In this document: one piece after another, positions 6,541 to 18,803 of the stretch | Position numbering within the stretch: the first letter of the stretch is position 1 | Layout: every line of letters starts with the position of its first letter | NCBI GenBank assembly: GCA_021146305.1 | Contig: GCA_021146305.1_4336.1 | Source of the DNA: a phage | Direction: 5' to 3' (one strand) | DNA: 43,091 nucleotides | Position numbers and translations under genes: made by a program | Notes under the pieces: generated by a model | Databases searched by the model: none | Told to the model about the DNA's origin: nothing | Seen by the model: only the letters and a program-made list of their open reading frames with translations

Positions 6541-6647
6541 TCTTTAATCCTTTGGTTAAGAGGTTACGGGTTAAGGTTAATGCGCCAGACGGGAACCACC
6601 CGCTTTTCGTGTGCGACACTAGGCGCAAAATTATTCTATCACATTAC

Positions 6648-6676
6648 TTGCACACCCCAATATAATAGTGTACTAT
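6648..6676 (+). promoter_or_regulatory. sigma70-like promoter with operator palindrome
   Basis: TTGCAC (6648-6653), 17-bp spacer, TACTAT (6671-6676); palindrome TAATAG-tgta-CTATTC (6663-6678) overlaps the -10; about 40 bp upstream of ATG 6718. Confidence 0.55.
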
Positions 6677-6717
6677 TCACTTACACCAACGATGTTATCC
6701 CAAACAGGAGCTACACC

Positions 6718-6909
6718 ATGACGGGTATTACTATGTTCTTCTTAATCATTATCGTTTTAGTTTATTTTATTCCATTTCTCGTGGCGCATATGCGCGACCA
6801 TAAAGCGAAATTAGCGATATTCATGGCTAATCTGTTTCTTGGATGGGTTCTGCTGCCGTGGGTATTTATTTTAATCTGGGCTTGCAACTCGAATGTCAAA
6901 GAGAAGTGA
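6718..6909 (+). CDS. small membrane protein
   Basis: 64 aa from ATG 6718 preceded by AGGAG; two hydrophobic helices (FFLIIIVLVYFIPFLVA and LFLGWVLLPWVFILIW). The track ORF 6580-6909 is longer, but the internal ATG has the RBS and promoter. Confidence 0.55.
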   Translation: MTGITMFFLIIIVLVYFIPFLVAHMRDHKAKLAIFMANLFLGWVLLPWVFILIWACNSNVKEK

Positions 6910-6946
6910 GCTAGTATAGGACAAATCCTAAGCACGAGGAATAAAC

Positions 6947-8077
6947 ATGGCCCGGAAGAAAATAACCGACGAACAGTTGCAGGAAGAATTGAACGCCGGT
7001 ATGAAGAATGTAGATATCGCCCGTAAATACGGCATCTCAGACCGCGTAATTCGTATCCGTAAAGCGAAGCTGGCTAAGAAAGGCGTGGGCCACGGGCGCG
7101 ACGTTAGCCACCTTGTGCCAGACGGCTACAAGATTAAAGGAACGTCGTCACTTGTGGACGAGTTCGGCAACACTAAGTTGCAATGGGTTAAGACTGATAC
7201 CGACGCCGAACGTCAGGTTGAATTGATGAAAGCCGTAATAGAGGGCATGAAGTCAGAGATTACGCCCGTTGCGCCTGTTAAAGCGGCGCGCGCCAAACGT
7301 GACGACAAGCTACTCAATCTTTACACTGTATCTGATTTCCATCTCGGTATGCTGGCATGGGCCGATGAGAGCGGCGACGACTGGGACATGAAGATTGCAG
7401 AAGACCTGTTCTCTCGGTGGTTCGACGCGGCGTTTCAGAAAGCACCGGATGCAGGAACAGGAGTTATTAACCTGCTTGGGGACTTCGCACACTTCGATAG
7501 TCTTGATGCCGTTACCCCCGAGTCGCGCCATGTATTAGATGCGGATACTCGCTATCAGAAACTGGTACGTTACATGATTCGTATGGTCCGCCGTGTTGTT
7601 GATATGGCGCTGGTTAAGCATCACACAGTAAAACTTTTAATCGTTCAAGGTAACCACGACCCTGTTGGCTCCGTATGGCTTGCCGAAATGTTCACGGTTT
7701 TATACTCAAACGACAGCCGAGTGATTGTTGATACGTCGCCGGATGTTTACAAGATGGTGCAACACGGCAAAACGACGCTGTTCTTCCATCACGGGCATAA
7801 AGCACGATTCGACGCTATCGAACCGGTTATGATTGCCAAGTTCCGTAAAGCGTTCGGCGAGAGTGTTTACAGCTACGCCCACGTAGGCCATCTGCACCAC
7901 CAGAAGATTGTAGAAAGCCGTAACATGATTGTTGAGCAACACCGCACCTTAGCGGCTAAAGACGCCTACGCCTCTCGCGGCGGATGGATGTCGGGCCGCA
8001 GTGCAAATGTAATTACTTATAGCGCCGGATATGGTGAGGTCGCACGTTTAACTATTTCACCGGAGATGCTGGGATGA
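6947..8077 (+). CDS. HTH-containing calcineurin-like metallophosphoesterase
   Basis: 376 aa; N-terminal helix-turn-helix-like segment, then ordered metallophosphoesterase motifs SDFHLG, GDFAHFD, GNHD, HHGH, GHLHH (motif I resembles SbcD/Mre11 DWHLG); AGGA RBS. Confidence 0.7.
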   Translation: MARKKITDEQLQEELNAGMKNVDIARKYGISDRVIRIRKAKLAKKGVGHGRDVSHLVPDGYKIKGTSSLVDEFGNTKLQWVKTDTDAERQVELMKAVIEGMKSEITPVAPVKAARAKRDDKLLNLYTVSDFHLGMLAWADESGDDWDMKIAEDLFSRWFDAAFQKAPDAGTGVINLLGDFAHFDSLDAVTPESRHVLDADTRYQKLVRYMIRMVRRVVDMALVKHHTVKLLIVQGNHDPVGSVWLAEMFTVLYSNDSRVIVDTSPDVYKMVQHGKTTLFFHHGHKARFDAIEPVMIAKFRKAFGESVYSYAHVGHLHHQKIVESRNMIVEQHRTLAAKDAYASRGGWMSGRSANVITYSAGYGEVARLTISPEMLG

Positions 8078-8562
8078 AAGATATTGTAATTTTCGATTTA
8101 GACGGGACATTGGCCGACGGTACCCATCGCTTACACCTGTTACCAAAAGATAACTACGGAGAAACGTGGGCGTGGAAGCCATTTAACATGGCCTGCAAAG
8201 ATGACGCTCCGATATACGACAATATCCATTTGTGTAGCGTACTGTGGCATTCCGGACTTACTATAATTATCCTTACCGGGCGAAGTGATGACGCTGAGGA
8301 GGAGACTCGCGAATGGTTACGAGAGAATAACGTTAGGTTTGACACGCTAATCATGCGCAGCAAACACGACAACAGAAAAGACATCGTAATTAAAGAAGAG
8401 GTGTTGCGTGCTTTCGGACTGGAAAGAATCTTGTGTGCGTTCGACGACTCTCCAGCGGTAATAAAGCATTTCCGTGACCTCGGCATAACCGCACACGCAG
8501 TTACCGAATACGACTGTAACGGGAACTCTACACACTTAAAACCACACGGGAGCGATAAATAA
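8074..8562 (+). CDS. HAD-superfamily phosphatase (polynucleotide 3'-phosphatase / nucleotidase-like)
   Basis: 162 aa; N-terminal FDLDGTLADG (HAD motif I, DxDGT) plus downstream RKD..KEE segment; resemblance to the T4 Pnk phosphatase domain is recalled from memory, not aligned; ATGA coupling to upstream gene. Confidence 0.6.
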   Translation: MKDIVIFDLDGTLADGTHRLHLLPKDNYGETWAWKPFNMACKDDAPIYDNIHLCSVLWHSGLTIIILTGRSDDAEEETREWLRENNVRFDTLIMRSKHDNRKDIVIKEEVLRAFGLERILCAFDDSPAVIKHFRDLGITAHAVTEYDCNGNSTHLKPHGSDK

Positions 8563-9116
8563 TGGCTAAGGTAATTATTCTTAATGGCCCTGCGGGTTGC
8601 GGGAAAGACACGCTTGCTATGGCGCTGGTAGAAATGGGCTTTGCGAAAGGAACTACCAGTTTCAAGAATCCAATGTTCAATATTGCTTTGGCAGCGTTAG
8701 GCCAGGATGCTTACCACGAATTTCTCGACGGCTACGACGACCGGGCGCGGAAAGAAAAACCCGAGGGTTTTCTTAATGGGTTGTCCCGCCGCCGGTTAAT
8801 GATTGCCATTTCTGAGCAATTCATTAAACCGGTATTCGGCGATGATTATTTCGGTAAGTATCTTGCTGAAAACTTGCCTGACGGCGACGAAGTTTTTGTA
8901 GTGTCCGATGGTGGATTCGCCAGTGAAGTTGCCCCTATCGTCGCCGCGGGGCATGACGTGCGAATCGTCCGCCTCCATCGTGACGGCTATACGTTCATCC
9001 GCGATAGCCGTGGCTATCTGTACGATGTTAGTGGTGTAAAAGATTACGACACCTACATCATACCGGGTGACGTTAAATCGAACGTTATAGACATTGCTTT
9101 AAAATTAGGTTTGTAA
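8562..9116 (+). CDS. P-loop kinase (dNMP kinase / polynucleotide kinase-like)
   Basis: 184 aa; Walker A GPAGCGKDT; overall pattern resembles phage dNMP kinase family (recalled, not aligned). Confidence 0.6.
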   Translation: MAKVIILNGPAGCGKDTLAMALVEMGFAKGTTSFKNPMFNIALAALGQDAYHEFLDGYDDRARKEKPEGFLNGLSRRRLMIAISEQFIKPVFGDDYFGKYLAENLPDGDEVFVVSDGGFASEVAPIVAAGHDVRIVRLHRDGYTFIRDSRGYLYDVSGVKDYDTYIIPGDVKSNVIDIALKLGL

Positions 9117-15065: not shown

Positions 15066-15329
15066 CTATTCCAGAATATTCCTCACATAATCCTGCAACT
15101 GGAATACTTTCAGACGCAGTTGCCGCACGCATTCGGCGTTCTGAACGTCTATAGCCAAATCCTCGTCAGCATCGCTACTTGGCGGGGCCAGTTTGCACGG
15201 CGGCTGCATCATCGTCGTATCCGGGGATGGAATTGGCGTTGGCGACGGCGCGGTACTTGAGCTGCACGCGCTCAGGGTCAAAAGTGCACACGCTGCGACC
15301 AGGCGTCTTAATGTACTTAACGACTTCAC
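15066..15329 (-). CDS. o-spanin (Rz1-like outer-membrane lipoprotein)
   Basis: 87 aa; signal peptide with lipobox LSAC, Pro-rich mature region; gene overlaps the 3' part of the i-spanin gene in another frame. Confidence 0.6.
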   Translation of the reverse strand: MKSLSTLRRLVAACALLTLSACSSSTAPSPTPIPSPDTTMMQPPCKLAPPSSDADEDLAIDVQNAECVRQLRLKVFQLQDYVRNILE

Positions 15330-15561
15330 GGGTGATTACCTCTGATTTCGTCTTGCCTTCGTTGTCAGCGGCTGCGGCCTTTGATTCATCCTGCTGCTGC
15401 CGTTGTGTTTTCTTCGCTAACTCAGCCTGTGCTTTCTGCTGCTGCTGAGAAACTAGATTCGCCCGGCCTTCGTTCCAGCCGCTGCGGTACTGATAGATGC
15501 CGTGTGCGTAAGCCAGGATGATGAAACATGCTCCCGCTACGACAGTTGCTTTAAGATTCAT
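15175..15561 (-). CDS. i-spanin (Rz-like)
   Basis: 128 aa; N-terminal transmembrane helix (VVAGACFIILAYA), Gln-rich coiled-coil periplasmic region; overlapping partner lipoprotein gene. Confidence 0.65.
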   Translation of the reverse strand: MNLKATVVAGACFIILAYAHGIYQYRSGWNEGRANLVSQQQQKAQAELAKKTQRQQQDESKAAAADNEGKTKSEVITREVVKYIKTPGRSVCTFDPERVQLKYRAVANANSIPGYDDDAAAVQTGPAK

Positions 15562-15671
15562 GTTTCTCCTTTCTCGATAAGTAAAGCCCCGCCATAAAGC
15601 GGGGCGCTAGTCCTTATCATTTAAACATAGAAACGGCGTAATCTCAGTAAACCAGTTACTTTTTACACAAG

Positions 15672-15826
15672 CAATAGAGTATGGCCCTTCCGAACGCGTC
15701 AGCGTAACTACACTCAGGACTTACGTCCCGCTCCGTTACCTGCCCGCGCCGCGGTCGCTTGTTCATACTTCACAAGCTCAGGTGGAGCTTAGCACATTTT
15801 TAGTGAAAAGTCAACTATTCGAATAG
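15672..15826 (-). promoter_or_regulatory. conserved promoter + structured leader module, copy 1
   Basis: Leftward promoter TTGACT (plus coords 15809-15814), 17-bp spacer, TAAGCT (15786-15791), with palindrome CTATTC-GAATAG (15815-15826) just upstream; about 110-bp conserved leader 15672-15778 shared with copy 2, including stem ggac-ttac-gtcc (15717-15728). Confidence 0.55.
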
Positions 15827-15880
15827 TTTATTCCAACATTTACAATTGAGTGGAATAACCGGAATACATAAACAAATAGT

Positions 15881-15909
15881 TTGCGCACCCCAATATAATA
15901 GGGTACTAT
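15881..15909 (+). promoter_or_regulatory. sigma70-like promoter with operator palindrome
   Basis: TTGCGC (15881-15886), 17-bp spacer, TACTAT (15904-15909); palindrome TAATAG-ggta-CTATTC (15896-15911); near-identical to the promoter at 6648-6676. Confidence 0.55.
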
Positions 15910-15936
15910 TCATTCTATCGAACCGGGGAGGCCGTC

Positions 15937-16038
15937 ATGTTAGTCGTTATTTCAGTAGTAATTGCAGTTGATGCGGTGATGTTTCTTTGGGCTTGTAGCG
16001 GTATTGGTGACATTGACACGGGTAATGGTGAACTATGA
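15937..16038 (+). CDS. micro-peptide, hydrophobic
   Basis: 33 aa (MLVVISVVIAVDAVMFLWACSGIGDIDTGNGEL); GGGGAGG RBS; stop overlaps the start of the next gene (ATGA). Confidence 0.4.
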   Translation: MLVVISVVIAVDAVMFLWACSGIGDIDTGNGEL

Positions 16039-16379
16039 AATATATTAAATTAGCAGTAGCAGGTGTTGTAGCCGTTTGTTTGAGTGGTTGCGTAAGGTCG
16101 TTGCCAGACCCGGCTTTACAGGTTTATCAGGCAGGGGATACAACGGCAACATGTAATCAGTTACTATCGAGAATCGCCACGACAAAACAAGCTCAAGCCA
16201 ACGCTACGCACCGTGTTAATAAGCAAATAGGTACTAACGTTGTACTCGGTGTTACAGGCGCATTCCTGATTGTTCCGCTGTTCTTTATGGACACGGGCGC
16301 CGGGCCTTCTATGGACGAGATGACAGCCGGTAATCGTCTGTCGCAGTTACAACAAACATACGACGAGAAATGCAAATGA
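16035..16379 (+). CDS. lipoprotein with internal hydrophobic segment
   Basis: 114 aa; signal peptide ending in lipobox LSGC; later hydrophobic stretch VVLGVTGAFLIVPLFF. Confidence 0.6.
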   Translation: MKYIKLAVAGVVAVCLSGCVRSLPDPALQVYQAGDTTATCNQLLSRIATTKQAQANATHRVNKQIGTNVVLGVTGAFLIVPLFFMDTGAGPSMDEMTAGNRLSQLQQTYDEKCK

Positions 16380-16447
16380 CAAATAGTGTGATGTTTTATG
16401 TTGTTTTGTGGGTATCGGCTGCGGTTATCACCGCGATGTTCATATAA
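16376..16447 (+). CDS. micro-peptide, hydrophobic
   Basis: 23 aa (MTNSVMFYVVLWVSAAVITAMFI); ATGA overlap with the lipoprotein stop; very short, so tentative. Confidence 0.3.
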   Translation: MTNSVMFYVVLWVSAAVITAMFI

Positions 16448-16451
16448 AAAT

Positions 16452-16474
16452 AAAGCCCCGTAAGGGGCCTTTTA
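16452..16474. terminator. bidirectional intrinsic terminator
   Basis: GCCCC-gtaa-GGGGC hairpin with A-run upstream and T-run downstream; closes the plus-strand island and the convergent gene 16475-16936. Confidence 0.6.
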
Positions 16475-16936
16475 TCATTCTGGCTTAGTAACCTTCGCCG
16501 CTTTGCTTACCGCCTCTACTCCATCGGCATCAGTAACTTTAACGAAGTATTCGCCGACCGCATTAACCGTCAGAGACAGAGCCTCCTCAGGCGCATTCAC
16601 CACTTCCTTACCGTCTTTGTACCAGGTCAGAGAATACGGCGCTTTGCCTGCCTTAACCTCGACAGTGATGGTTGCGCTGCCGCCCGCCAGTTCAGCGTCC
16701 TGCGGTTGCGCAGAGAAATACACGTCGCCAGCGTCCGCCAGATACGGAATTTCATAAAGCATACCTGCGGCGGGCAACGCAATACCGGTTTTATCTGCAA
16801 ACGGCATATCATCTACCGGTGTACCGAGTACACTTTCGTCCCCAATAAATACCACGTTCTCGCCAGAGCCAGACACGCGGGCGTACTGGACTACGCGACG
16901 AGACGGTACGTCAGTTACTTTGAAAAAGCCCATCAT
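16475..16936 (-). CDS. Ig-like domain protein (head or neck associated)
   Basis: 153 aa; C-terminal segment ATITVEVKAGKAPYSLTWYKDGKEV...GEYFVKVTD is Ig-like and similar in pattern to 12827-13168. Confidence 0.5.
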   Translation of the reverse strand: MMGFFKVTDVPSRRVVQYARVSGSGENVVFIGDESVLGTPVDDMPFADKTGIALPAAGMLYEIPYLADAGDVYFSAQPQDAELAGGSATITVEVKAGKAPYSLTWYKDGKEVVNAPEEALSLTVNAVGEYFVKVTDADGVEAVSKAAKVTKPE

Positions 16937-17979: not shown

Positions 17980-18060
17980 ATACCCTCCTGTTTCGATATG
18001 ACAATCATATCAGTCGGTAACGTATTGGCATAATCATACGCATTTAAGGTTAAAAAGAGC

Positions 18061-18092
18061 TTGATTAAATTCTACATTCAAATGTAGAATTT
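18061..18092 (+). promoter_or_regulatory. promoter overlapped by a perfect 12-bp inverted repeat
   Basis: TTGATT (18061-18066), spacer, extended -10 TGTAGAAT (18083-18090); inverted repeat AAATTCTACATT-ca-AATGTAGAATTT (18067-18092). Confidence 0.55.
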
Positions 18093-18121
18093 AAACGTAC
18101 ACTTAAACAGGAGAAATACAC

Positions 18122-18775
18122 ATGAAACTGCAAACATTAGAGTTCCCTTATGGAGAAATCACTTTTGACCGTGAAAACTTTATTAACGTAAACGAGCTGG
18201 TTGACCAGATGAACCGTTGGCGTTTAGACAACGGCATGGGGGCCAGAGAGCTTCGCCAGGTCATGGCAACGGATGGCTTCAAGATTTTCAAGGAGGAATG
18301 CGAAAAACAACTCGGAATCGAGAATGCCATAAGGGCGACGAAAGGCCGAAACGGTCGCACCTTTGCATGTCTCCATCTGGCAGTATATATTGCTGAGCAA
18401 TACAGCGCCTATTTCCATTTCCTCGTTATCGACCGCTTTATCACGCAACGGCAGGTAGAACTACGAAACATTGGCGCGGTGAGCTTTGTCGAGCTTAACG
18501 CTGCCGTTAGTCGAATGATCGAGCGCACGGAGGGAAGAATTGGCCACAGTGGACACTTCATACAGGTGGCTAAAGCGGTAAAGGAATCCGTAGATATCCG
18601 CGACGTAACGGGTTTCGATACATGGGACTCTCAGGATGCGAAGACCAATCAGTTGCGAAGTGACATCCAGAAAGCTCTGGTGACGCTTCTTGACATGGAG
18701 GCCGTTAATACATGGGGTGAACTGAAAGAGGCGATACCTCGGGTTGTGCGTAAATGTGCGGCTAATATACGTTAA
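18122..18775 (+). CDS. KilA-N domain protein
   Basis: 217 aa; N-terminal ~100 aa fit the KilA-N pattern (GRNGRTFACLHLAVYIAEQYSAYFHFLV); AGGAGA RBS; plus-strand gene inside a minus-strand structural block. Confidence 0.55.
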   Translation: MKLQTLEFPYGEITFDRENFINVNELVDQMNRWRLDNGMGARELRQVMATDGFKIFKEECEKQLGIENAIRATKGRNGRTFACLHLAVYIAEQYSAYFHFLVIDRFITQRQVELRNIGAVSFVELNAAVSRMIERTEGRIGHSGHFIQVAKAVKESVDIRDVTGFDTWDSQDAKTNQLRSDIQKALVTLLDMEAVNTWGELKEAIPRVVRKCAANIR

Positions 18776-18776
18776 A

Positions 18777-18803
18777 ACTAAGGCCCCTAGCGGGGCCTTT
18801 CTA
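18777..18803. terminator. bidirectional intrinsic terminator
   Basis: AGGCCCC-tagc-GGGGCCT hairpin (18781-18798) flanked by A-run and T-run. Confidence 0.7.

What the first reader, a model, noticed from the sequence alone, without database searches (positions are those of the whole stretch)
15881..16474. Terminator-bracketed island encoding a lipoprotein flanked by two hydrophobic micro-peptides
A plus-strand cassette inside the minus-strand morphogenesis block: operator-bearing promoter (15881-15909), a 33-aa hydrophobic peptide, a 114-aa lipoprotein (lipobox LSGC, later hydrophobic segment) and a 23-aa hydrophobic peptide, all translationally coupled and closed by a bidirectional terminator. 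Small phage lipoproteins in this kind of position are often superinfection-exclusion or receptor-masking factors; the micro-peptide partners are unusual and the set could act as a small membrane complex.
Basis: partly seen in the sequence, partly recalled or inferred. Interest (0 to 1): 0.55.

Follow-up and report, generated by a model that had tools for sequence, protein, structure and literature searches.

The report
Swappable phage cassette encoding envelope lipoprotein
This is a self-contained 600-bp accessory gene cassette with its own promoter and terminator, carried by a minority of Kagunavirus phages in a swappable slot, and it encodes a secreted lipoprotein of a large unstudied family plus two real micro membrane proteins that most likely alter the infected cell's envelope, perhaps to keep rival DNA out, although no function has been tested.

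Summary
Window 15867-16473 is a classic moron in a Kagunavirus (Guernseyvirinae) genome. It has a sigma-70-type promoter, three translationally coupled plus-strand ORFs of 33, 114 and 23 aa, and a bidirectional terminator. It lies between the spanin genes and the Hoc-like head-decoration gene.

Phage K1G has the empty site. Other relatives carry different cargo behind the same promoter: a Dam methylase, nuclease-like proteins, small unknown ORFs, or the 33-aa ORF alone. Only 11 of 181 related records carry this cassette.

All three ORFs evolve as coding sequence. The micro-proteins are modular rather than obligate partners of the lipoprotein.

The lipoprotein matches PHROG 13472 and belongs to a large family (at least 1,464 clusters at 50% identity) with no Pfam, NCBIfam, PADLOC or PDB relative. 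It has a lipobox cysteine, two further invariant cysteines and an invariant hydrophobic loop (LGVTGAFLIVPLFFMD) that is not predicted to span a membrane.

Homologues sit in P22-like prophages directly after the DNA-transfer gene (the sieA slot), beside a CI repressor, on plasmids, in an integrative conjugative element (ICE), and in early regions of Aeromonas podophages. Chromosomal copies have no conserved neighbour.

An envelope-acting exclusion role is the best guess (about 0.4). It rests on position only.

The parts
15867..16473 (+). Whole moron: promoter, three ORFs and terminator. It is the segment that replaces a 38-nt terminator-only stretch in the empty site of phage K1G.
   Evidence: The K1G junction sequence was compared with the window. 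Across four different cargos, homology breaks exactly after TACTATTCA at 15912.
15880..15912 (+). Sigma-70-type promoter of a family repeated across the phage genome: -35 TTGCGC 15881-15886, 17-nt spacer, -10 TACTAT 15904-15909, inferred transcription start near 15916.
   Evidence: A 30/33 identical copy lies at 6647-6679. There are 8 core copies against 0.82 expected, each followed by an SD and an ATG. The same motif was reported by PHIRE in fBC-Eco01 (PMC9825357).
15937..16038 (+). ORF1, a 33-aa micro membrane protein with a hydrophobic N-terminal half and an acidic tail ending ...GNGEL. It has a strong SD (GGGGAGG, 15925-15931), and its stop overlaps the lipoprotein start (ATGA).
   Evidence: It is intact in 7 close relatives, with conservative changes. 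The K1H homologue has the same length, 55% identity, and pS 0.68 above pN 0.28, while the other frames carry stops. It is absent from allele L012.
16035..16379 (+). 114-aa lipoprotein precursor. Signal peptide aa 1-18; lipobox LSGC with Cys19 at 16089-16091; invariant Cys40 (16152-16154) and Cys113 (16371-16373).
   Evidence: PHROG 13472 at E = 1.2e-44. Family alignments. dN/dS about 0.11 against allele L012. The AF2 model is a helical hairpin, H40-72 and H93-112.
16236..16292 (+). Invariant hydrophobic loop of the lipoprotein (aa 68-86, NVVLGVTGAFLIVPLFFMD) at the tip of the predicted hairpin.
   Evidence: N68, L71, G72, G75, F77, P81, F83, F84, M85 and D86 are invariant in 138 sequences. The best 19-mer has Hessa dG of +2.4 kcal/mol. 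The flank charge is +1.0 before and -2.4 after the loop in 138/138 sequences.
16376..16447 (+). ORF3, a 23-aa single-helix micro membrane protein (MTNSVMFYVVLWVSAAVITAMFI). Its start overlaps the lipoprotein stop. An alternative ATG lies at 16370.
   Evidence: Against allele L012, pS is 0.91 and pN 0.117 in frame, and the other frames carry stops. Hessa dG is -1.47. It is present in all 11 cassette-bearing records but annotated in none of the seven cassette-bearing annotations examined.
16452..16471 (.). Bidirectional intrinsic terminator (AAAGCCCC-GTAA-GGGGCTTT) with T-runs on both strands. It closes the cassette and also ends the converging Hoc-like gene transcript.
   Evidence: One search finds it on both strands. 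It is annotated on both strands in fBC-Eco01.

Best explanation
Window 15867-16473 is a moron: an autonomous, horizontally exchanged accessory cassette sitting in a conserved cargo slot of Guernseyvirinae phages.

Shown:
- A host-type (sigma-70) promoter is shared with the phage's nucleotide-metabolism island and other operons. It is followed by a roughly 21-nt leader, three translationally coupled ORFs and a bidirectional terminator.
- All three ORFs are under purifying selection.

Inferred:
- The cassette is transcribed by host RNA polymerase, independently of the late operon.
- The 114-aa product is exported, lipidated at Cys19 and, lacking Asp at +2, sent to the inner leaflet of the outer membrane.
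- Its body is a periplasmic helical hairpin clamped by a Cys40-Cys113 disulfide. An invariant hydrophobic loop at the tip dips into a membrane leaflet or plugs a conserved envelope partner.
- The 23-aa ORF3 is a co-inherited inner-membrane helix. The 33-aa ORF1 is an independent micro membrane protein that in this allele also provides the ribosome loading for the lipoprotein, whose own SD is weak.

Most likely function (inferred from position only): the lipoprotein changes the envelope of the infected or carrier cell so that incoming DNA from other phages or plasmids is excluded, or so that progeny are not wasted on infected cells and debris. This would be analogous in role to T5 Llp, Cor, P22 SieA and plasmid entry-exclusion lipoproteins, but it is unrelated to them in sequence.
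For: Moron status:
- K1G has the empty site.
- At least seven slot states occur among 181 records.
- The homology break falls exactly at the end of the promoter.

Promoter. Terminator.

Coding status: lipoprotein dN/dS 0.11 and ORF3 pS 0.91 against pN 0.12; ORF1 pS 0.68 against pN 0.28.

Lipoprotein topology:
- Lipobox, and three invariant cysteines in 138 sequences.
- Acidic C-flank and basic N-flank of the loop in 138/138 sequences, with a positive insertion free energy.
- Hairpin model with pLDDT 77-89 on the two helices.

Exclusion-type contexts of homologues:
- Directly after the P22 gp16 DNA-transfer gene in eight P22-like or podoviral prophage loci that lack SieA. This is the slot where sieA lies (PMC10883804; PMC2629481).
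- Next to a CI-like repressor (L098).
- After MobC-relaxase-ProQ on mobilisable plasmids, and on a Rep3 plasmid.
- After TraH/TraG at the edge of ICE cargo that holds restriction-type and helicase genes.
- In the early regions of virulent Aeromonas Autographiviridae, with family membership confirmed at E = 1e-15 to 1e-17.
Against: - No experimental data exist for any member of the family.
- No homology to any known exclusion protein, and no PADLOC hit.
- Most family members are chromosomal with no conserved neighbour and no obvious link to mobile elements. The ancestral role may therefore be a housekeeping envelope function.
- The cassette is not next to the receptor-binding genes, unlike cor/llp in other siphophages.
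- Only 11 of 181 related phages carry it, so it is dispensable.
- The structure model is low-confidence at the key loop (pLDDT about 50), and fold searches gave nothing significant.
- The timing of promoter activity is inferred, not measured.
Confidence: 0.42

Rival explanations
1. The cassette is a host-fitness or envelope-robustness factor, analogous in role to lambda Bor/Iss or TraT serum resistance. The lipoprotein would stabilise or remodel the outer membrane for the benefit of cells that harbour the element (prophage, plasmid, ICE, or a phage carrier state). It would not act on incoming DNA.
For: - The family is widespread on chromosomes of many diderm phyla as a stand-alone gene, which suggests a general envelope role.
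- Like bor, it sits next to Rz/Rz1 and is transcribed in the opposite direction (the lambda layout is from general knowledge).
- A complete Kagunavirus genome with the identical gene is deposited as a circular 'plasmid' of a blood isolate. That is compatible with a carrier state.
Against: - No homology to Bor/Iss or TraT.
- Guernseyvirinae are virulent phages, with no integrase reported (PMC9825357).
- Aeromonas T7-like phages carry the gene in their early region, where long-term benefit to the host is irrelevant.
Confidence: 0.17
2. The cassette is a lysis-control module. The lipoprotein and the micro membrane proteins would tune the holin or spanin step, for example as an antiholin or anti-spanin, by delaying lysis, or by protecting against lysis from without. 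This would explain the position beside the spanin genes.
For: - It lies next to the Rz/Rz1-like spanins.
- All three products are envelope-targeted and hydrophobic.
- Another counter-oriented island in the same block encodes a lysis-class amidase.
Against: - The same slot carries a Dam methylase, nuclease-like proteins or nothing at all, so position does not imply a lysis function.
- The holins and endolysin are encoded elsewhere and are complete.
- No PHROG lysis family matches any of the three ORFs.
- Homologues in plasmids and ICEs have no lysis context.
Confidence: 0.13
3. The cassette is a counter-defence or host-takeover factor acting on a conserved envelope machine. Examples would be blocking an envelope-associated abortive-infection or defence sensor, or altering Lol, Bam, Lpt or Tol function to favour the phage.
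For: - The hydrophobic loop is invariant and sequence-specific, which argues for a specific conserved partner rather than a passive anchor.
- Other cargos of the slot include an anti-restriction-type Dam methylase.
- The promoter class is shared with DNA-metabolism genes.
Against: - No partner has been identified.
- There is no conserved neighbour anywhere.
- Carriage by prophages and plasmids, where the gene would be expressed in healthy cells, fits a protective role better than takeover.
Confidence: 0.13
4. The cassette is a hitch-hiking remnant with no current function in this phage.
For: It is present in only 11 of 181 relatives. K1H looks like a deletion derivative that keeps only ORF1 plus the first codons of the lipoprotein gene.
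Against: - There is strong purifying selection on all three ORFs between diverged alleles.
- The promoter, SD and terminator are intact.
Confidence: 0.05

Closest known systems
Phage morons as defined in lambdoid phages (for example HK97 gp15, lambda bor and lom)
   Same: An autonomous promoter-gene-terminator unit inserted between conserved genes. It is present or absent among close relatives, an empty site is known, and it is transcribed independently of the surrounding late operon.
   Different: It sits in a virulent siphophage rather than a prophage. The promoter belongs to the conserved flank, and only the cargo plus terminator is exchanged. The cargo is a three-gene set that includes two micro-proteins.
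T5 Llp and phi80/T1 Cor superinfection-exclusion lipoproteins
   Same: A small outer-membrane-type lipoprotein made by a phage. Llp is also made by a virulent phage.
   Different: No sequence similarity: Cor PHROG 1119 scores E = 0.29, over the signal peptide only. The gene is not adjacent to receptor-binding genes. The family is far larger and mostly chromosomal. No receptor target is known.
P22 SieA (inner-membrane DNA-injection blocker)
   Same: Homologues of the lipoprotein occupy the sieA slot, directly after ejection-protein gene 16, in P22-like prophages that lack sieA (PMC10883804).
   Different: SieA is a multi-pass inner-membrane protein with a cytoplasmic FxRYPxEAxxFNK motif. This protein is a lipoprotein with no predicted membrane-spanning helix. 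They are not homologous.
Plasmid and ICE exclusion lipoproteins (F TraT, RP4 TrbK, ColE1 Exc/MbeD)
   Same: A small lipoprotein encoded beside transfer or mobilisation genes (after TraG in an ICE; after MobC-relaxase-ProQ).
   Different: No match to the TraT or TrbK models in Pfam or NCBIfam. An exclusion phenotype has not been tested.
Lambda Bor / Iss lipoprotein
   Same: A lipoprotein moron lying beside Rz/Rz1 and transcribed in the opposite direction.
   Different: No homology (no Lambda_Bor Pfam hit). Bor is expressed from a prophage.
PHROG 13472 (unknown function)
   Same: A full-length match at E = 1.2e-44. This is the family the protein belongs to.
   Different: The PHROG carries no annotation, and the wider bacterial family (at least 1,464 clusters at 50% identity) has not been described.

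Membership tests
Moron (autonomous accessory transcription unit) | Own promoter upstream of the cargo | tested here: met
   A repeated sigma-70-type promoter lies at 15880-15912. Its activity was not measured.
Moron (autonomous accessory transcription unit) | Own terminator downstream | tested here: met
   Bidirectional terminator at 16452-16471.
Moron (autonomous accessory transcription unit) | Present/absent among close relatives, with an identifiable empty site | tested here: met
   K1G has the empty site. Only 11 of 181 records carry the cassette. Other cargos occupy the same slot.
Moron (autonomous accessory transcription unit) | Expressed independently of neighbouring operons | not testable with these tools
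   Needs RNA-seq or 5'-RACE.
Bacterial lipoprotein (Lgt/LspA/Lnt substrate) | Signal peptide with lipobox [LVI][ASTVI][GAS]C | tested here: met
   MKYIKLAVAGVVAVCLSG|C. Cys19 is invariant in 138 homologues.
Bacterial lipoprotein (Lgt/LspA/Lnt substrate) | Actual lipidation and globomycin-sensitive processing | not testable with these tools
   Experimental.
PHROG 13472 / the wider uncharacterised lipoprotein family | Full-length profile match with the invariant motif N-x2-LG-x2-G-x-F-x3-P-x-FFMD and two further cysteines | tested here: met
Cor / Llp / Bor-Iss / TraT / TrbK exclusion or conversion lipoproteins | Sequence or profile homology to the family model | tested here: not met
   No Pfam, NCBIfam or PHROG hit beyond the signal peptide.
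Cor / Llp / Bor-Iss / TraT / TrbK exclusion or conversion lipoproteins | Exclusion or serum-resistance phenotype | not testable with these tools
   Experimental.
P22 SieA | Multi-pass inner-membrane protein with the FxRYPxEAxxFNK motif (PMC10883804) | tested here: not met
   There is a single marginal hydrophobic loop and the motif is absent.
P22 SieA | Location between gene 16 and gene 9 of P22-like prophages | tested here: met
   True of homologues, not of this phage: L004-L006, L011 and L093, L094, L096.
o-spanin (Rz1-like) | Lipoprotein paired with or embedded in an i-spanin gene, matching a spanin profile | tested here: not met
   The phage already has Rz/Rz1 at 15066-15561. The 114-aa protein hits no spanin PHROG.
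Holin (for ORF1 and ORF3) | Match to a holin family, adjacent to an endolysin gene | tested here: not met
   No PHROG or Pfam hit. Two holins and the endolysin are encoded elsewhere.
Known anti-phage defence proteins (PADLOC) | Profile match | tested here: not met
   No family matched for the window protein or for three homologues.

The most novel reading that the evidence does not exclude
The 114-aa protein would be the first tractable handle on a large, unannotated lipoprotein family of diderm bacteria. Its form would be a disulfide-clamped periplasmic helical hairpin with an invariant hydrophobic loop. Sipho- and podophages, P22-like prophages, plasmids and ICEs have captured it repeatedly. 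In this reading it acts as a generic blocker of DNA entry by engaging a conserved envelope component. In Kagunavirus it would work together with a dedicated 23-aa inner-membrane partner. That would make it a new class of exclusion system that works across different kinds of mobile elements.
Probability: 0.2. Interest if true: 0.7.

Novelty: new variant of a known kind. Interest (0 to 1): 0.45.

Why it matters
If the lipoprotein is an exclusion or envelope-modifying factor, it would assign a first function to a family of more than a thousand sequence clusters that no curated database describes. It would also show one protein design reused by virulent phages, prophages, plasmids and ICEs.

In practical terms, Kagunaviruses are being developed for therapy and synthetic biology. 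A fixed promoter-cargo-terminator slot with natural empty and filled states is a ready-made site for inserting payloads. A cargo that alters the host envelope is also relevant to phage-cocktail compatibility.

The two micro-ORFs add verified examples of conserved phage micro membrane proteins. ORF3 is missing from all seven cassette-bearing annotations examined.

Tried and rejected
- Known-family searches for all three ORFs (Pfam, PHROGs, NCBIfam, PADLOC and PDB sequence search) returned only PHROG 13472.
- Structure: the first AF2 model, from 21 sequences, was poor (pLDDT 60). A second, from 138 sequences, gave a hairpin (pLDDT 68). Foldseek against PDB and BFVD found only generic helical hairpins at E > 0.5. 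The AFDB library was unavailable.
- Conserved-neighbour search across 55 chromosomal loci found no family in more than 3 of about 200 neighbouring proteins, so there is no operon partner. An apparently recurring 263-aa neighbour turned out to be unrelated proteins that happen to share a length.
- Micro-peptides as conserved partners: none flank the homologues in prophages, the ICE, plasmids or viral contigs. tblastn finds them only in Kagunavirus.
- A transmembrane-anchor reading of aa 68-86 was rejected on insertion energy, flank charges and the invariant cysteine pair.
- A spanin or holin reading was rejected.
- The 'putative structural protein' label in phage HSE2 rests on no virion proteomics (PMC5967307).
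- The prophage allele was not found in complete E. coli genomes.
- Rfam found nothing in the region at any threshold.
- The search for related loci with the broad alignment A4 failed because it had no sufficiently conserved stretch. A1 was used instead.

Full report
**Identity of the window**

The region is 96.6-98.6% identical to Kagunavirus (Guernseyvirinae) phages such as Shigella phage phiSD1, BUCT823, fBC-Eco01 and Golestan. The flanking minus-strand genes are:
- the Rz/Rz1-type spanins (15175-15561 and 15066-15329; PHROGs 2536 and 5672);
- a Hoc-like head-decoration protein (16475-16936; PHROG 3945);
- the head-morphogenesis protein.

**Checking the observation**

- ORF1 (33 aa, 15937-16038) has a strong SD, GGGGAGG, five bases upstream.
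- The 114-aa ORF (16035-16379) starts in an ATGA overlap with the ORF1 stop. It has a textbook lipoprotein signal peptide, MKYIKLAVAGVVAVCLSG|C.
- ORF3 (23 aa, 16376-16447) starts in a second ATGA overlap.

A GC-rich hairpin at 16452-16471, with T-runs on both sides, scores as a terminator on both strands.

The generic promoter scan missed the promoter because its -35 (TTGCGC) matches only three of six consensus positions. The 33-bp block 15880-15912 nevertheless recurs at 6647-6679 with 30/33 identity, where none is expected by chance. Its core recurs eight times against 0.82 expected. Each copy is followed by a short leader, an SD and an ATG. The fBC-Eco01 authors found the same motif with PHIRE and attributed it to a phage RNA polymerase (PMC9825357). 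No RNA polymerase appears among the 73 annotated features of the near-identical phage phiSD1. The motif also has a sigma-70 layout: TTGCRC, 17 nt, TACTAT.

**It is a moron in a swappable slot**

- Phage K1G has the empty site. The conserved left flank runs to ...GGAATA and is followed by 38 nt holding only a terminator before the Hoc-like gene. This defines the insertion as window 15867-16473.
- In phages carrying four different cargos, homology to the window stops exactly after the -10 box and start region, TACTATTCA at 15912. The promoter therefore belongs to the shared flank, and the cargo plus terminator is what is exchanged.
- Among 181 related records only 11 hold this cassette.
- The other slot states are:
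  - a Dam methylase;
  - a 173-aa RusA/beta-clamp-like protein;
  - a 179-aa endonuclease VII-like protein;
  - unknown ORFs of 67-70 aa;
  - ORF1 alone (K1H);
  - nothing at all.

**Are the micro-ORFs real?**

A metagenomic Kagunavirus contig (L012) carries a diverged allele of the cassette. Its lipoprotein is 82% identical, and its flanks are 98-99% identical.
- For the lipoprotein, dN/dS between the two alleles is about 0.11.
- For ORF3, 20 of 69 nucleotides differ. In frame, pS is 0.91 and pN 0.117. The other two frames carry stops and show pN above pS. ORF3 is therefore a conserved coding gene co-inherited with the lipoprotein. None of the seven cassette-bearing annotations examined lists it.
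- ORF1 is missing from L012, where the lipoprotein has its own SD and a GTG start.
- A homologue of ORF1 with the same length and 55% identity is the only cargo in K1H. In frame, pS is 0.68 and pN 0.28, and the other frames carry stops.

ORF1 is thus an independent micro-protein module. In the window allele the lipoprotein's own SD is weak, so ORF1 probably also provides translational coupling (inference). Neither micro-ORF matches any family, and neither occurs outside Kagunavirus.

**The lipoprotein family**

- It matches PHROG 13472 (unknown function) at E = 1.2e-44.
- Nothing matches in Pfam, NCBIfam, PADLOC or PDB sequences.
- A profile search finds 1,464 cluster representatives at 50% identity with E <= 1e-3, of which 713 have E <= 1e-10. 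A second search finds 971 clusters at 90% identity.
- Members occur in Pseudomonadota, Deferribacterota, Nitrospinota, Planctomycetota, Omnitrophota and Desulfobacterota.
- In 138 aligned members the invariant residues are the lipobox Cys19, D35, C40, N68, L71, G72, G75, F77, P81, F83, F84, M85, D86, R101, L105 and C113.

The hydrophobic stretch is unlikely to be a membrane-spanning helix, for four reasons:
- Its best 19-mer has a positive Hessa insertion energy (+2.4 kcal/mol; the family 17-mer mean is +0.64).
- In 138/138 sequences the ten residues before it are more basic (mean +1.0) than the ten after it (mean -2.4). This is the reverse of what an N-out/C-in helix needs.
- Most members (81/138) have exactly three cysteines.
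- AF2 with the deep alignment gives a helical hairpin, H40-72 and H93-112, at pLDDT 77-89. That places C40 and C113 at the same end. The loop itself is modelled with low confidence.

My reading (inference) is a periplasmic, lipid-anchored, disulfide-clamped hairpin whose invariant hydrophobic tip inserts into one leaflet or binds a conserved partner. Fold searches were uninformative.

**Genomic contexts of homologues**

The closest relatives of the phage protein, at 38-45% identity, all lie in mobile elements.
- Eight P22-like or related podoviral prophage loci carry the gene directly after the gp16 DNA-transfer or virion-protein gene and before mnt/arc/ant or the tailspike. Each copy has its own terminator.
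  - This is the 'ant moron' region where P22 keeps sieA (PMC2629481; PMC10883804).
  - None of the prophages examined has a SieA-like gene there.
- Other mobile-element copies lie:
  - next to a CI-like repressor (L098);
  - after MobC-relaxase-ProQ on small mobilisable plasmids;
  - on a Rep3 plasmid;
  - after TraH/TraG, at the edge of ICE cargo that carries restriction-type and helicase genes;
  - in the early regions of virulent Aeromonas Autographiviridae, confirmed as family members at E = 1e-15 to 1e-17.
- By contrast, 55 chromosomal loci share no neighbour. No Pfam family occurs in more than 3 of about 200 flanking proteins. Examples in Chromobacterium and in a metagenome lie among ordinary metabolic and signalling genes.

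**Interpretation**

The structural call is secure: a moron with three real genes. The functional call is not.

Mobile elements that move DNA across the envelope have captured this gene repeatedly, often in slots known for prophage-expressed exclusion genes. That makes an envelope-acting exclusion role the single most likely function. I put it at about 0.4. The reasons for caution are that the evidence is purely positional, that the family is mostly chromosomal, and that no homology links it to any characterised exclusion protein.

The rival readings are listed separately: a Bor/TraT-like robustness factor, lysis control, counter-defence, and a functionless remnant. The literature held here contains nothing on this protein. 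The Kagunavirus papers call it hypothetical or, without virion data, 'structural'.

**Novelty and score**

A phage moron encoding a lipoprotein is a familiar kind of thing. What is new is:
- the protein family, which is large, uncurated and has a distinctive invariant loop;
- its spread across several kinds of mobile element;
- the modular micro-protein companions;
- the fixed-promoter cargo slot.

I rate it a new variant of a known kind, of moderate interest (0.45).

Noticed in passing
window 15562-15866: This is an ultra-conserved non-coding block. It is 98% identical between this E. coli phage and Salmonella Jerseyvirus L223, whose flanking genes are only 77-88% identical. It is present at 94-99% identity in 179 of 181 Guernseyvirinae records.

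On the minus strand it reads as a promoter (TTGACT, 17 nt, an extended -10 TGcTAAGCT), then about 195 nt of transcript, then a strong terminator at 15605-15586 immediately before the spanin, scaffold and capsid genes. That layout recalls lambda PR'-6S RNA-tR' late antitermination.

Some records annotate a 36-38-aa ORF here. There is no Rfam hit, and the RNA fold z-score is only -1.4.
   Followed up: partly
window 15813-15858: A perfect 16-bp palindrome, AACTATTCGAATAGTT, and an 8-bp inverted repeat, TTATTCCA/TGGAATAA, lie between the two divergent promoters. These are better candidates for a regulator-binding site than anything inside 15881-15909. The half-site AACTATTC resembles the -10/start region of the repeated promoter.
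   Followed up: no
window 6647-9116: A second counter-oriented island sits inside the tail-gene block and is headed by a near-identical copy of the same promoter. It encodes an SbcD-like DNA-repair exonuclease, a polynucleotide kinase and a dNMP kinase-like protein.
   Followed up: partly
window 17980-18800: A third counter-oriented island lies between the head-morphogenesis and portal genes. It encodes a 217-aa amidase (PHROG 6095, lysis class) behind a different promoter that overlaps the palindrome TTCTACATTCAAATGTAGAA. It ends in a bidirectional terminator near 18781-18800. In relatives this slot holds other cargo: a beta-clamp-like gene in fBC-Eco01 and a 55-aa ORF in phiSD1.
   Followed up: partly
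L090 (phage K1H) 440-600: The K1H slot holds the promoter, an ORF1 homologue and the terminator. After the ORF1 stop it reads ATGAAAAATAA, which matches the first two codons of the lipoprotein gene. K1H therefore looks like a deletion derivative of the three-gene cassette that kept only ORF1.
   Followed up: partly
L076, L077 (phages phiEc4, K-02), ORF3 codon 12: Two cassette-bearing phages have Trp12-to-Arg in the middle of the 23-aa hydrophobic ORF3. This puts a charge inside the putative membrane helix. It may be an inactivating or a function-altering variant.
   Followed up: no
L080 (CP088689.1): A 44,086-bp circular 'plasmid' of an E. coli blood isolate is a complete Kagunavirus genome carrying an identical lipoprotein gene. 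It could be a carrier state, pseudolysogeny or contamination.
   Followed up: no
window 15066-15329 (minus strand): The embedded o-spanin ORF can be read as 87 aa from a GTG start, with a lipobox at LSAC. Relatives annotate only the 48-aa C-terminal part. The start may be mis-annotated in the public records.
   Followed up: no
L008 5662-5850 (Seleniivibrio ICE): A 62-aa hydrophobic ORF lies divergently, just upstream of the ICE-borne lipoprotein homologue. It is unrelated in sequence to ORF1 and ORF3, but it is another small membrane protein sitting next to a family member.
   Followed up: no
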